Shown in pieces: positions 3,665 to 5,961 of a DNA stretch of 11,213 nucleotides. The stretch covers positions 1-11,213 of the forward strand of contig SXNL01000123.1 of the NCBI GenBank assembly GCA_005777185.1, written 5' to 3'. The notes beneath the pieces are model-generated. The model saw only the letters and a list, made by a program, of their open reading frames with translations, searched no databases and was not told where the DNA came from. The first letter of the stretch is position 1, and each line of letters begins with the position of its first letter. A program made the position numbers and the translations under genes. The stretch comes from Myxococcales bacterium (GTDB lineage: Bacteria; Myxococcota_A; Polyangia; Polyangiales; Polyangiaceae).

Positions 3665-3750
3665 CCTTCGCCCGCCCTCTCACGTCCGGTCGAAGGTCGG
3701 AGCTCGGCGCGTCCGCGCCGGCGTGGGGCGCCTCTGGTAGGATCGCCGGG

Positions 3751-4917
3751 GTGACACGCAACCTGGTGGCGGCGATTTTACTGCATATTGCATGCATCGC
3801 CGGCTGCTCGAAGCAGGGCCTGATCGACGCCGCGATGATGAGCGCGCCTCGGCCGGAGCCGCCGGCACGAGCCGAGGTCGTGGTGGGCGAGCGCCGCTTC
3901 ACGCTCCTCGCGGGCGACGGGCATTGCCACGTCACCCCGCCAGACGCGCCCTTCCACGTGTCGCGCGACGTGGGGGCGGCCCTCGGGCTCGCGCGTGCAG
4001 AGCGCCTGGACTTCGTGATCTTCACGCCTCACGTGCGTGCGCGCTTCATGGCGGACCCCGAGCTTCGGGCCTCGTTCGTCGACGGCGCGCGCGTCCTCGA
4101 CCGCGAGCTGAGGGCGCTCGCCGCGACCGATGTCTTGCTGGTGCGCGGCTTCGAGTACACGGACCACATGTGGGGCCACGTCGGGTTCGCCTTCGGCGAC
4201 GAGACGCGCGCCCTCGAGGCCGCCGGAGACACCGGGGATCCGCGTCCGTTCTTCGAGGCCTACGTCGCCTCGGGTGGCGTCCTCACGCTGAACCACCCGC
4301 TCGTGTTGCCCCTCGATGGCGCGCCGTTCCACGAGGCCCGCGCCGACATGTCCTGGCGCGCGTTCACACGTCCCGCGCGCAGGCTCCCCGCGGACGTGGG
4401 CTGGCTCACCGCTCACGCCCACACGATCGAGACGTTCAACCTCGGCGTCTCCTTCCTCCGCGACCGGCTCCTCCGCGACGACCCGGAGGCGAGCTTCCGG
4501 GAGAACCACTTCCTGCTCGATCGCCAGATCCGCGCCCAGCGCCGCCGCCTCTCGTCGGTCGCCGGCTCCGACAGCCACGGGATGCATCTCCGCGCCGTGA
4601 TGTACGTGCTCGCCGACGCGCGCTCCACCGCGGACCTGCGGCGCGGGATCCTGGCGGGCCGCACCTGCGTGCGAGGGCCAGAGGCTTGCGTCGCGCAATT
4701 CCGGACGGACGGGCCCTGGCAGCCAGTGGGCAGCGCGCTCTCCTCGCCCCGCGCGCTCGAGATCGAGGCCCCCGCCGGCGCGACGGTCTACGTCGACGGC
4801 GTGAGACACGACGGCGCGAGCGTGCCGGCGCGCGCAGGCGTGTGCCAGGTGGTGCGTGTCCAGGTCGGACGGAGCATGTCGGGCCCGACGTACTTCAACT
4901 GCCCCTTCGTCACTTGA
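3751..4917 (+). CDS. PHP-domain (polymerase/histidinol-phosphatase-like) metal-dependent phosphoesterase with a lipoprotein signal peptide
   Basis: GTG at 3751 gives MTRNLVAAILLHIACIAG-C-SKQ, a textbook SPII signal with lipobox IAGC. An alternative ATG at 3835 would lose the signal. PHP motifs present: GDGHCH (HxH metal site), FTPHV, LNHP, GSDSHG (D.H). The in-frame sequence upstream of 3751 (ORF track 2767-) lies inside the membrane-protein gene in another frame and is Arg-rich noise. TGA stop at 4915-4917. Confidence 0.65.
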   Translation: MTRNLVAAILLHIACIAGCSKQGLIDAAMMSAPRPEPPARAEVVVGERRFTLLAGDGHCHVTPPDAPFHVSRDVGAALGLARAERLDFVIFTPHVRARFMADPELRASFVDGARVLDRELRALAATDVLLVRGFEYTDHMWGHVGFAFGDETRALEAAGDTGDPRPFFEAYVASGGVLTLNHPLVLPLDGAPFHEARADMSWRAFTRPARRLPADVGWLTAHAHTIETFNLGVSFLRDRLLRDDPEASFRENHFLLDRQIRAQRRRLSSVAGSDSHGMHLRAVMYVLADARSTADLRRGILAGRTCVRGPEACVAQFRTDGPWQPVGSALSSPRALEIEAPAGATVYVDGVRHDGASVPARAGVCQVVRVQVGRSMSGPTYFNCPFVT

Positions 4918-5815
4918 ACTGTACCGCGCCCGGCGCGGCCGCGTTGCTGAGCACCGCCGGGATCGTGTCCATGAGGACCTGCCCGTCGGTCGAGGTGATC
5001 CGCAGCGTGAGGCCGCCGGGCTGGAGGCCGACGCCATTCGTATCGATGAAGAAGTTGTAGTCTACACGTGGCATGTTCACGAAGGCTGCGCCCTTCTTGT
5101 ACTCGACCTTCGCGATCGGGACCCGATGGTTGCGGATCTGGATCGCGGTCCAGTACTGGGAGCTGCCGTCCTTGAAGAAGTAGCTGATGTTCCCGGTGAC
5201 CTCGCACGTGACCGCCTGCAGGGTGATGGGGACGATGCCCTTCACCTTGGGCGCGATCCTCTCGAAGCCTTGCGGGGAGAGGTCGATCGTGCTCCCGTCG
5301 CCGGCGCAGGTGGGACACGAGTCGACGACCCGCACGATGAGCTCCCCGAGCTCGCCGACGAGGCGGTAGCAGCCGCCACACACGGCGCTCGCGAGGTAGT
5401 CGGCCGTGTTCATCGCCGCGACGGTGTAGTACTGGCTCGCGGGAAGCTTGTCGTAGGAGCAGTGGCCGGTGCCGTCCGCCTCGACGTAGAAGGTCGCCTT
5501 GCCGTTCTTGATGGGGCCCAGCGTGCGGAGGCCACCGCTGGTGGAGCCGCTCGTCCCGCTGTCGCCGGACGCGCCGCTCGTCCCGCTGTCGCCAGACGCG
5601 CCGCTCGTCCCGCTCGTCCCGCTCGTCCCGCTCGTCCCGCTCGTGCCGGAGGCGCCGCTCGTGCCGGAGGCGCCGCTCGTGCCGGAGGCGCCGCTCGTGC
5701 CGCCCGACGTCGTCCCGACGTTGCCGGGATCGGCGGGCGGGCCGTCCTCCGCGCCACGGCAAGCGACGAACGCGAGGACGACCGAGGCGGTGGCGAGGAC
5801 GAGCGGATGACGCAC
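4910..5815 (-). CDS. exlX: Bacterial expansin (EXLX1/YoaJ-type: DPBB domain D1 plus CBM63-like domain D2) with lipoprotein signal and Thr/Ser/Gly-rich linker
   Basis: Strong similarity to B. subtilis EXLX1 as I recall it. STIDLSPQGFERIA matches GALDLSPNAFRKIG. GNISYFFKDGSSQYWTAIQIRNHRVPIAKVEYKKGAAFVNMPRVDYNFFIDTN matches GNFTYRIKEGSSRWWAAIQVRNHKYPVMKMEYEKDGKWINMEKMDYNHFVSTN. The C-terminal ...DTIPAV...GAVQF matches ...DTIPKL...GHVQF. A GTG at 5815 gives MRHPLVLATASVVLAFVAC-RG, a signal peptide ending in Cys. The maximal ORF instead starts at a GTG at 5917, adding 34 non-hydrophobic residues; that GTG has an AGGAG-like SD but overlaps the predicted sigma-54 promoter. TGA stop at 4910-4912. Confidence 0.75.
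   Translation of the reverse strand: MRHPLVLATASVVLAFVACRGAEDGPPADPGNVGTTSGGTSGASGTSGASGTSGASGTSGTSGTSGTSGTSGASGDSGTSGASGDSGTSGSTSGGLRTLGPIKNGKATFYVEADGTGHCSYDKLPASQYYTVAAMNTADYLASAVCGGCYRLVGELGELIVRVVDSCPTCAGDGSTIDLSPQGFERIAPKVKGIVPITLQAVTCEVTGNISYFFKDGSSQYWTAIQIRNHRVPIAKVEYKKGAAFVNMPRVDYNFFIDTNGVGLQPGGLTLRITSTDGQVLMDTIPAVLSNAAAPGAVQFK
5547..5700. repeat. Imperfect in-frame tandem repeats (27-bp unit x2, 9-bp unit gctcgtccc x4-5, 18-bp unit gctcgtgccggaggcgcc x3) encoding the (T/A/D)SG linker of the expansin
   Basis: Directly visible: gccgctcgtcccgctgtcgccggacgc / gccgctcgtcccgctgtcgccagacgc; then gctcgtccc repeated; then gctcgtgccggaggcgcc x3. On the minus strand this translates to GTSGASGTSGASGTSGASGTSGTSGTSGTSGTSGASGDSGTSGASGDSG. 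Confidence 0.8.
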
Positions 5816-5833
5816 GCCGGTAGTGTATTCGTT

Positions 5834-5849
5834 TGGCGCGCCCGCGCCA
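5834..5849. promoter_or_regulatory. 16-bp palindrome TGGCGCG-cc-CGCGCCA about 70 bp upstream of the candidate -24 element; possible enhancer-binding-protein or regulator site
   Basis: Arms tggcgcg (5834-5840) and cgcgcca (5843-5849) are exact reverse complements. Position relative to the sigma-54-like element matches typical bEBP upstream activator sites. It lies in the divergent intergenic region if the expansin starts at 5815. Confidence 0.2.
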
Positions 5850-5911
5850 TTCTGGATGCAGCTCTGGGCGCCTGGTCCCTGGAAATCGGCCCGTTTCGCA
5901 CCTACGTGAGG

Positions 5912-5927
5912 TGGCACGGGAGGTGCT
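5912..5927 (+). promoter_or_regulatory. Candidate sigma-54 (RpoN) -24/-12 promoter for the MVP-homologue gene
   Basis: TGGCACG (5912-5918) - GGAG - GTGCT (5923-5927) against the consensus TGGCACG-N4-TTGCW. The GG (5913-5914) and GC (5925-5926) have the exact N10 spacing. The predicted TSS near 5938 gives a ~24-nt leader containing the SD GAAGAAGGAG (5946-5955) before the ATG at 5962. Confidence 0.35.
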
Positions 5928-5961
5928 CCTCGCGGGGCGTCTCTCGAAGAAGGAGCCCGCC

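What the first reader, a model, noticed from the sequence alone, without database searches (positions are those of the whole stretch)
5834..5961. Sigma-54-type promoter plus upstream palindrome driving the MVP homologue
TGGCACG-GGAG-GTGCT at 5912-5927 matches the sigma-54 -24/-12 consensus at the critical GG-N10-GC positions, with one mismatch in the -12 box. It is correctly placed ~35 nt upstream of the ATG at 5962. About 70 bp further upstream lies a perfect 7+2+7 palindrome TGGCGCG-cc-CGCGCCA, the geometry expected for a bacterial enhancer-binding protein site. Sigma-54 control would mean the vault-protein gene is switched on by a specific signal (development, nutrient or envelope stress in myxobacteria) rather than expressed constitutively. 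The element also overlaps the alternative upstream GTG (5917) of the divergent expansin gene, which argues for the shorter expansin start at 5815.
Basis: seen in the sequence. Interest (0 to 1): 0.55.

Follow-up and report, generated by a model that had tools for sequence, protein, structure and literature searches.

The report
Conserved sigma-54 promoter of bacterial vault-protein gene
The bacterial relative of the eukaryotic major vault protein in this myxobacterial contig sits behind a sigma-54-type, activator-dependent promoter that is conserved in almost every myxobacterial orthologue examined, so the gene is probably switched on by a specific signal and is not expressed constitutively.

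Summary
Both motifs are at the stated coordinates. TGGCACGGGAGGTGCT (5912-5927, +) has one mismatch to TGGCACG-N4-TTGCW, at the weakly conserved -15 position. It is the only such site in the window and lies 36 nt before the ATG (5962) of a 681-aa MVP homologue.

The main evidence is comparative. In 62 orthologous loci, 38 carry a site with two or fewer mismatches on the sense strand in a 61-nt zone before the gene (0.1 expected, none antisense). With a looser score, about 53 of 55 Myxococcota loci carry one, and none of 8 non-myxobacterial loci do.

Upstream of these promoters lies a conserved 17-bp dyad, YGCnCCR-N3-YGGnGCR (NtrC-like layout). It is usually in tandem and phased at about 10.5 bp.

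Its arms are perfect half-sites of this dyad, at the junction of two degenerate tandem dyads (5824-5840, 5843-5859).

The sigma-54 reading is strongly supported. The enhancer-site reading is plausible, with a revised geometry. This is a new member of a known kind. Nothing has been tested experimentally, and the activator and its signal are unknown.

The parts
5912..5927 (+). Sigma-54 (RpoN) -24/-12 promoter element TGGCACG-GGAG-GTGCT (positions -26 to -11), with GG at 5913-5914 and GC at 5925-5926.
   Evidence: the only site with one mismatch or fewer in the window, 3/200 shuffles; 15.3 bits with the family matrix, next best 8.4; the equivalent site is conserved upstream of orthologues.
5937..5939 (+). 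Predicted transcription start, 12 nt downstream of the -12 C at 5926. This gives a leader of about 24 nt.
   Evidence: Inferred from sigma-54 promoter geometry. It is supported indirectly, where orthologues with the -12 C exactly 14 nt before the ATG lack a Shine-Dalgarno and those with longer leaders have one.
5950..5955 (+). Shine-Dalgarno AAGGAG, 6 nt before the ATG.
5834..5849 (.). Perfect 7+2+7 palindrome TGGCGCG-cc-CGCGCCA. It consists of two perfect half-sites (YGGnGCR and YGCnCCR) of the conserved upstream dyad, at the junction of dyads 1 and 2.
   Evidence: The same junction geometry occurs in L043 (CGGCGCA-gc-TGCGCCG) and, with one-nucleotide spacing, in L034. Generic palindromes of this size occur at chance frequency.
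5824..5840 (.). Distal candidate activator dyad TGTATTC-gtt-TGGCGCG. The right half is perfect and the left half degenerate. It starts at -88 from the T of TGGCAC.
   Evidence: 3.3 bits. Its position falls in the -88/-89 cluster of orthologous dyads.
5843..5859 (.). Proximal candidate activator dyad CGCGCCA-ttc-TGGATGC. The left half is perfect and the right half is off by one inserted T. It starts at -69.
   Evidence: 1.7 bits. It is near-identical to the 16.2-bit dyad TGCGCCA-ttc-CGGTGCG of the closest homologue, L065. Two such hits 18-24 nt apart occur in 0.25% of control 80-nt segments.
5962..8007 (+). Regulated gene: a 681-aa bacterial major-vault-protein homologue (MVP shoulder and vault repeats, with a C-terminal coiled coil).
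   Evidence: MVP_shoulder 9e-28; rat and human MVP at 1e-25; the N-terminus is conserved from residue 1. GC3 is 0.96.
4910..5815 (-). Divergent neighbour: an expansin-like (DPBB) lipoprotein with a Gly/Thr/Ser-rich linker. The true start is probably the GTG at 5815. Its 5' region overlaps the candidate activator sites.
   Evidence: DPBB_1. GC3 and the signal peptide VRHPLVLATASVVLAFVAC.

Best explanation
The 146-bp gap between 5816 and 5961 holds an activator-dependent sigma-54 promoter for the MVP-homologue gene. RpoN-RNA polymerase is proposed to bind TGGCACG-N4-GTGCT (5912-5927) as a closed complex. On receiving its signal it would oligomerise and use ATP to open the promoter. Transcription would then start near 5938 and give a 24-nt leader with an AAGGAG ribosome-binding site. 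Shown here: the motifs, their statistical rarity, their conservation and helical phasing across orthologues, and the absence of a sigma-70-type promoter. Inferred: binding by RpoN and an EBP, the start site, and inducibility. Unknown: which EBP acts and what signal it senses.
For: (1) The site has one mismatch to the consensus, at the weakly conserved -15 position. It is unique in the window and arises in 3/200 shuffles.
(2) Among 62 orthologous loci, 38 have a site with two or fewer mismatches, GG and GC fixed, on the sense strand in a 61-nt zone before the gene. The expected number is 0.1, and there are none on the antisense strand.
(3) With a graded score, about 53 of 55 Myxococcota loci have one, and their count matrix shows invariant G-25, G-24, C-23, G-13 and C-12. 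None of the 8 non-Myxococcota loci has one.
(4) The -12 variant GTGC is seen in at least 7 orthologues.
(5) The site's offset from the conserved coding motif varies in all three frames, so this is not protein-coding conservation.
(6) There is an internal consistency check. In 24 loci the -12 C lies 14-15 nt before the ATG, and 22 of these lack a Shine-Dalgarno. In 31 loci with longer predicted leaders, 30 have one. This is what is expected if the site sets the transcription start.
(7) A 17-bp palindromic motif, YGCnCCR-N3-YGGnGCR, lies upstream of these promoters. In two-fold cross-validation 51/52 held-out loci have a hit of 8 bits or more at -110..-30, about 70-fold enrichment. Hits are usually tandem, and their starts cluster at -47, -57, -67, -79 and -89.
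(8) The window has two weak dyads at -69 and -88, each with one perfect half-site. This arrangement occurs in 0.25% of control segments.
(9) No sigma-70-like promoter is found in 5650-6100.
(10) RecA on the same contig is 83-84% identical to RecA from Myxococcales and Labilithrix. By established knowledge this phylum encodes RpoN and many EBPs.
(11) Tandem dyad sites within about 100 bp of the sigma-54 site are the documented pattern for the M. xanthus NtrC-like regulator NmpR (PMC11841059).
Against: There is no transcript, start-site or genetic evidence, because the contig comes from a metagenome. The window's full-dyad scores (3.3 and 1.7 bits) are far below those of almost all orthologues (8 bits or more), so the window is the weakest case in the family for the activator site. 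The half-site alone occurs 0.8 times per 100 nt in this DNA, and 7+N+7 palindromes occur at chance frequency. The thresholds used were set after seeing the window. No EBP gene lies on the 15-kb parent contig, and only 2 of 62 loci have one within 4 kb, of two different types. The presence of rpoN in this organism is inferred from taxonomy and was not seen directly.
Confidence: 0.82

Rival explanations
1. The sigma-54 promoter is real, but the 5834-5849 palindrome is not its enhancer. It could be a chance GC-rich palindrome or an operator for the divergent expansin-like gene. The activator would then bind elsewhere or through very degenerate sites.
For: Perfect palindromes with 7-nt arms and a spacer of 6 nt or less occur 13 times in the window against 14.3 expected. 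Half-sites occur 0.8 times per 100 nt. Full-dyad scores in the window are only 3.3 and 1.7 bits, against 8 bits or more in 51/52 orthologues. The half-site orientation in the palindrome is the reverse of the conserved dyad. The palindrome lies only 19-34 nt from the expansin start, so it is well placed to act on that gene. A related palindrome at 3705-3720 has no sigma-54 site downstream.
Against: Both arms are perfect matches to the conserved half-site. The two dyads they belong to are 19 bp apart and start at -69 and -88, inside the phased clusters seen in orthologues. The same 7+2+7 junction geometry occurs in L043. Dyad 2 is nearly identical to the strong dyad of the closest homologue, L065. 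Such a pair occurs in 0.25% of control segments. No better candidate site exists between 5816 and 5911.
Confidence: 0.3
2. The TGGCACG-N4-GTGCT match is a chance occurrence in GC-rich DNA, and the gene is transcribed from an unrecognised housekeeping-type promoter.
For: Allowing two mismatches, about 0.8 matches per window are expected by chance. One orthologue, L019, appears to use TTGACA-N17-TACGCT instead.
Against: Allowing one mismatch, only 3/200 shuffles give any site. In orthologues 38 sites are observed against 0.1 expected, none antisense. The -25/-24/-23 and -13/-12 positions are invariant. The Shine-Dalgarno and leaderless dichotomy tracks the position of the site. No sigma-70-like promoter is found in the region.
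Confidence: 0.04
3. The conserved GGCAC...TGC block reflects something other than a promoter. It could be an N-terminal coding extension of the MVP homologue (ORF from TTG 5833), a 5'-UTR RNA element, or the coding start of the divergent ORF (GTG 5917).
For: Open reading frames run through the region on both strands. The metagenome gene caller used 5917 as the start of the divergent gene.
Against: GC3 is 0.72 and 0.65 in the two putative extensions, against 0.96 and 0.93 in the genes. The protein alignment is conserved from Met1 at 5962. The motif sits in all three frames relative to the ATG in different loci. Only the -24 and -12 blocks are conserved, with a variable 4-nt spacer, which is not an RNA-helix pattern. 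There is no Rfam match in the window.
Confidence: 0.02

Closest known systems
Canonical RpoN (sigma-54) -24/-12 promoters, consensus TGGCACG-N4-TTGCW
   Same: GG and GC lie exactly 10 nt apart. TGGCACG is matched fully and TGC of the -12 box is kept. The site is on the sense strand, 36 nt before the start codon. There is no -35/-10 promoter. Candidate activator sites lie within 100 bp upstream.
   Different: The -15 position is G instead of T, a variant shared by at least 7 orthologues. Nothing has been tested experimentally. In about 40% of orthologues, though not in this window, the promoter abuts the ATG so closely that the mRNA would be leaderless. I could not find this described for sigma-54 promoters in the searchable library.
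Enteric NtrC enhancer sites (TGCACCA-N3-TGGTGCA; from my own knowledge, Ames and Nikaido 1985 as cited in PMC11841059)
   Same: The orthologue-wide motif YGCnCCR-N3-YGGnGCR has the same 17-bp dyad layout and the same conserved G2, C3, C5, C6 / G12, G13, G15, C16 positions. Some loci, such as L017 (TGCACTGCTTTGGTGCA) and L034 (TGCACCGATTTGGCGCA), are near-perfect NtrC consensus sites. The sites occur in tandem upstream of a sigma-54 promoter.
   Different: Position 4/14 is mostly T/A here, where NtrC has A/T. The sites lie closer to the promoter, with centres at about -64 to -107 relative to the start. There is no evidence that the binding protein is the nitrogen regulator. The window's own sites are half-degenerate.
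Myxococcus xanthus NmpR sites (GCGCA-N5-TGCGC, tandem S1/S2 with 14-15 bp between the sites, upstream of sigma-54 promoters; PMC11841059)
   Same: The phylum is the same and so is the architecture: two dyads with a 5-nt core spacer, in intergenic regions, less than 100 bp from the sigma-54 site.
   Different: The half-site sequence differs (GCnCC/GGnGC against GCGCA/TGCGC), so a different EBP is expected. The Nla28 half-site CT[C/G]CG[C/G]AG (PMC9765219) also differs.
Bacterial MVP homologues described in bioRxiv 10.1101/872010
   Same: The protein family is the same (Myxococcales MVP-like proteins with a band-7-like region and a C-terminal coiled coil).
   Different: That preprint does not contain the words sigma, promoter or operon. 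The regulation described here is new information on the family.

Membership tests
Sigma-54 (RpoN)-dependent promoter | Invariant GG (-24) and GC (-12) dinucleotides separated by exactly 10 nt | tested here: met
   GG at 5913-5914 and GC at 5925-5926.
Sigma-54 (RpoN)-dependent promoter | Good match to the extended consensus TGGCACG-N4-TTGCW, beyond chance | tested here: met
   There is one mismatch, at -15. Only 3/200 shuffles give any such site in 22 kb of strand. The family matrix scores it 15.3 bits against 8.4 for the next best position.
Sigma-54 (RpoN)-dependent promoter | Correct strand and distance relative to a gene start, with a ribosome-binding site in the predicted leader | tested here: met
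   The -12 C lies 36 nt before ATG 5962. AAGGAG is at 5950-5955. The start codon is confirmed by alignment and by GC3.
Sigma-54 (RpoN)-dependent promoter | Conservation of the element upstream of orthologous genes | tested here: met
   38 of 62 loci at a strict threshold against 0.1 expected, and about 53 of 55 Myxococcota loci with a graded score.
Sigma-54 (RpoN)-dependent promoter | Host encodes RpoN and enhancer-binding proteins | not testable with these tools
   Only a 15-kb metagenomic contig is available. RecA places it in Myxococcota, Labilithrix/Polyangiales-like. From established knowledge this phylum carries rpoN and many EBPs. No EBP gene is on the contig.
Sigma-54 (RpoN)-dependent promoter | Transcription depends on RpoN and starts about 12 nt downstream of the GC | not testable with these tools
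   This needs 5'-end mapping and genetics. The only indirect support is the Shine-Dalgarno and leaderless dichotomy in orthologues.
NtrC-family EBP upstream activating sequence (tandem dyads) | Dyad-symmetric site matching the motif conserved in orthologues (YGCnCCR-N3-YGGnGCR) | tested here: inconclusive
   In orthologues, 51/52 held-out loci score 8 bits or more. In the window the best full dyads score only 3.3 and 1.7 bits, each with one perfect and one degenerate half.
NtrC-family EBP upstream activating sequence (tandem dyads) | Two or more sites about two helical turns apart, within about 150 bp upstream of -24 and on a fixed helical face | tested here: met
   The window dyads start at -88 and -69, 19 bp apart. 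Orthologue site starts cluster at -47, -57, -67, -79 and -89, with spacings mostly 19-23 bp. The pair is rare in controls, 0.25%.
NtrC-family EBP upstream activating sequence (tandem dyads) | Bound by an EBP DNA-binding domain and required for activation | not testable with these tools
   This needs EMSA or footprinting and reporter mutagenesis. The cognate EBP was not identified; neighbouring EBP genes occur in only 2 of 62 loci and are of different types.
Enteric-type NtrC nitrogen regulon | Regulation by the nitrogen-sensing NtrB/NtrC pair, with the same sites upstream of glnA-type genes | not tested
   There is only motif resemblance.

The most novel reading that the evidence does not exclude
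Across Myxococcota, the bacterial vault-protein homologue is the conserved target of one dedicated NtrC-like activator. This activator would recognise helically phased TGCnCC-N5-GGnGCA dyads, which match enteric NtrC sites at every conserved position. Vault-protein production would then be a signal-induced response, possibly to nitrogen limitation or starvation. In about 40% of lineages the sigma-54 promoter is placed exactly 14 nt before the ATG, which would give sigma-54-dependent leaderless mRNAs, a combination I could not find described.
Probability: 0.3. Interest if true: 0.7.

Novelty: new member of a known kind. Interest (0 to 1): 0.5.

Why it matters
The function of bacterial MVP homologues, and of eukaryotic vaults, is unknown. 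A conserved activator-dependent sigma-54 promoter means the gene is silent until a dedicated sensor fires. The conserved tandem dyad gives a concrete bait for identifying that sensor, and through it the physiological condition under which bacteria make a vault-like protein. The orthologue set also offers a natural test bed of sigma-54 promoters with and without leaders. For this window alone, the result is an ordinary but well-supported promoter annotation, plus a corrected start for the divergent gene.

Tried and rejected
(1) I looked for a cognate EBP gene next to the MVP gene. GAFTGA and Walker-A motifs occur in only 2 of 62 loci. L013 has a REC-AAA+ type, apparently frameshifted, and L014 has an FHA-AAA+-HTH_8 type. 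They are unrelated to each other, so the EBP is not linked to the gene.
(2) I looked for other targets of the dyad within the 65 fetched loci. No dyad of 10 bits or more outside the MVP promoters has a sigma-54-like site beside it. A recurrent in-gene hit, CGCTTCGTGCCGGTGCG, is simply the codons of the conserved GRFVPVR peptide.
(3) I compared the motif with known M. xanthus EBP sites. NmpR (GCGCA-N5-TGCGC) and Nla28 (CT[C/G]CG[C/G]AG) are different motifs.
(4) I considered scanning the metagenome collection for the dyad plus sigma-54 pattern to define the regulon, and dropped it. My estimate was hundreds to thousands of chance matches in GC-rich DNA for any pattern loose enough to be useful.
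(5) An Rfam scan of the window found no match.
(6) A sigma-70 and terminator scan found no promoter-like site. It found one weak terminator-like hairpin on the minus strand across the ATG, which I judged incidental.
(7) A cluster look-up for organism names returned none. RecA homology was used for taxonomy instead.
(8) Treating the palindrome as significant in its own right was rejected after counting generic palindromes.

Full report
OBSERVATION. The sequence read confirms both motifs at the stated coordinates. TGGCACGGGAGGTGCT occupies 5912-5927 on the + strand, with GG at 5913-5914 and GC at 5925-5926, exactly 10 nt apart. The only departure from TGGCACG-N4-TTGCW is G for T at -15. TGGCGCG-cc-CGCGCCA occupies 5834-5849 and is a perfect 7+2+7 palindrome. 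Its centre lies 72 bp upstream of the -24 GG. The sigma-54-like site is the only match with one mismatch or fewer on either strand of the window, and 3 of 200 dinucleotide shuffles give any such match. Allowing two mismatches, chance would give about 0.8. The exact palindrome never arises in shuffles, but that test is post hoc. Counting every perfect palindrome with 7-nt arms and a spacer of 6 nt or less gives 13 in the window, against 14.3 +/- 4.1 in Markov-1 simulations. A palindrome of this size near a promoter is therefore unremarkable by itself.

SURROUNDINGS. The + strand gene at 5962-8007 encodes a 681-aa protein with a Pfam MVP_shoulder domain (9e-28) and borderline vault-repeat hits. 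It matches rat and human major vault protein in the PDB at 1e-25 over residues 182-594. Twenty homologues align from the first residue (M-x-E-R-D-V-R-E-R-D-I-L...), which fixes the start at ATG 5962. AAGGAG lies 6 nt upstream of it.

The divergent gene is an expansin-like (DPBB) protein. GC3 is 0.93 in 4910-5815 and only 0.65 in the putative extension 5816-5917. The MVP gene shows the same contrast, 0.96 against 0.72 for its putative upstream extension. The short form of the divergent protein begins VRHPLVLATASVVLAFVAC, a lipoprotein-type signal peptide. The metagenome gene caller had used 5917.

No sigma-70-like promoter is detected in 5650-6100, and there is no Rfam match in the window. The window is part of a 15.3-kb ENA metagenome contig with no EBP gene. 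Its RecA is 83-84% identical to RecA from Myxococcales and Labilithrix luteola, so the organism is a myxobacterium of the Polyangiales/Labilithrix type.

COMPARATIVE TEST OF THE PROMOTER. The MVP homologue has hundreds of relatives at 50-61% identity. I fetched 62 orthologous loci from species-representative genomes and four more for the closest homologues. I scanned the 350 nt before a conserved coding anchor for TGGCACG-N4-TTGCW with GG and GC fixed and two or fewer mismatches. This found exactly one site in 39 of 62 loci, always on the sense strand.

In a 61-nt zone there are 38 sense hits, against 0.1 expected from the density in the remaining 1.1 Mb of locus sequence. There are none on the antisense strand. 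With a graded score, recognisable variants appear in nearly all remaining Myxococcota loci, for example CGGCATG..CTGCA, CGGTACG..GTGCT and TGGCCTG..TCGCA. That makes about 53 of 55 Myxococcota loci.

The eight loci whose record titles assign them to Planctomycetota (four), Acidobacteriota (two), Clostridia and an archaeon have none. One myxobacterial locus, L019, shows TTGACA-N17-TACGCT instead.

The count matrix of the 55 sites has invariant G-25, G-24, C-23, G-13 and C-12 and a variable 4-nt spacer (one of the 55 sites, L065, was entered one base out of register, which accounts for the stray single counts). That is the sigma-54 signature. The window's site scores 15.3 bits with this matrix, against 8.4 for the next best position in the window. 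The site's distance to the coding anchor falls in all three frames, which excludes coding conservation. The window's GTGC at the -12 box is shared by at least seven orthologues, including the closest homologue L065 (CGGCACG-ACCG-GTGCT).

AN INTERNAL CONSISTENCY CHECK. The distance from the -12 C to the ATG is bimodal. In 24 loci it is 14-15 nt, which predicts a 2-3-nt leader, and 22 of these lack a Shine-Dalgarno. In 31 loci the predicted leader is 13-102 nt, and 30 of these have one. The window belongs to the second class, with a 24-nt leader and AAGGAG. This pattern is what one expects if the conserved element really sets the transcription start. It also implies a class of effectively leaderless sigma-54 transcripts among the orthologues.

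THE UPSTREAM ELEMENT. K-mer enrichment (GAAACGG and GTTTCGG) and an expectation-maximisation run on the 125 nt upstream of 52 promoters converge on a 17-bp palindromic motif, YGCnCCR-N3-YGGnGCR, of 14.3 bits. In two-fold cross-validation, 51 of 52 held-out loci have a hit of 8 bits or more between -110 and -30 of the promoter, against about 0.6 expected per 26 loci. Most loci have two hits 19-23 bp apart. The start positions cluster at -47, -57, -67, -79 and -89 relative to the T of TGGCAC, a period of about 10.5 bp, so the sites stay on one face of the helix.

The layout and the conserved positions are those of enteric NtrC sites (TGCACCA-N3-TGGTGCA; my own knowledge). They also resemble in architecture, but not in sequence, the tandem NmpR sites of M. 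xanthus (GCGCA-N5-TGCGC; PMC11841059). The Nla28 half-site differs too (PMC9765219).

In the window the full dyad scores poorly. The two best matches are 5824-5840, TGTATTC-gtt-TGGCGCG (3.3 bits), and 5843-5859, CGCGCCA-ttc-TGGATGC (1.7 bits). The two dyads are 19 bp apart and start at -88 and -69, within the phased clusters.

The same junction geometry occurs elsewhere. L043 has CGGCGCA-gc-TGCGCCG between two good dyads, and L034 has a 7+1+7 version. Dyad 2 is nearly identical to the 16.2-bit dyad TGCGCCA-ttc-CGGTGCG of the closest homologue, L065. A pair of hits at these scores, 18-24 nt apart, occurs in 0.25% of 24,120 control 80-nt segments, although the thresholds were chosen after seeing the window.

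Against this, half-sites occur 0.8 times per 100 nt in the window, and the window is the weakest full-dyad case in the family. My reading is that the palindrome marks the real activator-binding region. The conserved recognition unit, however, is the 17-bp dyad with the opposite half-site orientation, present here as two half-degenerate copies. I put this at roughly 0.55-0.65.

MECHANISM. The best-supported model has four steps. First, RpoN-holoenzyme binds 5912-5927. Second, an NtrC-family activator binds 5824-5859. Third, after activation the activator remodels the closed complex. Fourth, transcription starts near 5938. The motifs, their conservation, their phasing and the absence of an alternative promoter are shown. 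Binding, the start site, inducibility and the identity of the activator are inferred or unknown. The activator sites overlap the 5' region of the divergent expansin-like gene, so occupancy could also affect that gene, but this is speculation.

WHAT LED NOWHERE. EBP genes lie within 4 kb in only two loci and are of different types. No other dyad-plus-sigma-54 pair occurs in the fetched loci. Library searches found no paper linking bacterial MVP homologues to sigma-54. The one preprint on bacterial MVPs does not contain the words sigma, promoter or operon.

VERDICT. The sigma-54 interpretation is strongly supported by phylogenetic footprinting, and the enhancer interpretation is plausible with a revised geometry. 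In kind this is an ordinary activator-dependent sigma-54 promoter, so it is a new member of a known kind. Its conservation in front of the enigmatic vault-protein homologue, the well-defined phased dyad and the leaderless subclass make it moderately interesting. It also gives an experimental handle on the function of bacterial MVPs.

Noticed in passing
Orthologous loci such as L006, L008, L011, L026, L027, L030, L053, L054, L056 and L057 (promoter immediately before the ATG at about 4001): In 24 of 55 loci the -12 C of the sigma-54 site lies 14-15 nt before the ATG, and 22 of these have no Shine-Dalgarno. This predicts sigma-54-dependent mRNAs with 2-3-nt leaders, which are effectively leaderless. 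The other 31 loci have leaders of 13-102 nt, and 30 of them have a Shine-Dalgarno.
   Followed up: partly
window 3705-3730: A second related palindrome, CGGCGCG-tc-CGCGCCG, lies in the intergenic gap before the lipoprotein gene that starts at GTG 3751. The best full-dyad match of the whole window (3714-3730, 9.0 bits) overlaps it. The layout is the same as at 5834-5859, but there is no sigma-54-like site downstream, and it is not beyond chance by shuffles.
   Followed up: partly
window 4910-5917 (- strand): The metagenome gene call starts the expansin-like gene at GTG 5917. GC3 (0.65 against 0.93) and the lipoprotein signal peptide argue for GTG 5815. The called N-terminal 34 residues would overlap the MVP promoter.
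   Followed up: yes
window 5546-5702: Tandem repeats of 9, 18 and 27 nt encode a Gly/Thr/Ser-rich linker, (GTS/GAS)n, in the expansin-like lipoprotein. This region produces a probably spurious Pfam 'Collagen' hit.
   Followed up: no
L019 about 3900-3960; L003, L005, L007, L015, L020, L050, L052, L063: One myxobacterial orthologue, L019, has TTGACA-N17-TACGCT in place of the sigma-54 site. All eight loci whose titles assign them to Planctomycetota, Acidobacteriota, Clostridia or an archaeon lack a sigma-54 site. The sigma-54 control therefore looks specific to Myxococcota.
   Followed up: partly
window 8007-8012: The MVP-homologue gene (stop at 8007) and a convergent S9 prolyl-oligopeptidase gene (stop at 8012) are only 4 nt apart, which leaves no room for a terminator. 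The MVP gene appears to be monocistronic.
   Followed up: no
Orthologous loci at about +157 of the MVP gene (e.g. L009 4148, L019 4157, L032 4157): A recurrent in-gene match to the dyad matrix, CGCTTCGTGCCGGTGCG (10-12 bits), is the coding sequence of the conserved peptide GRFVPVR. It is probably a coincidence of codon usage and not a regulatory site, and it is absent from the window's own gene.
   Followed up: no
L013 1324-2730: An NtrC-type response-regulator EBP gene lies 1.3 kb upstream of the MVP gene. Its receiver domain and its AAA+ domain are in different frames, which points to an apparent frameshift or an assembly error.
   Followed up: no
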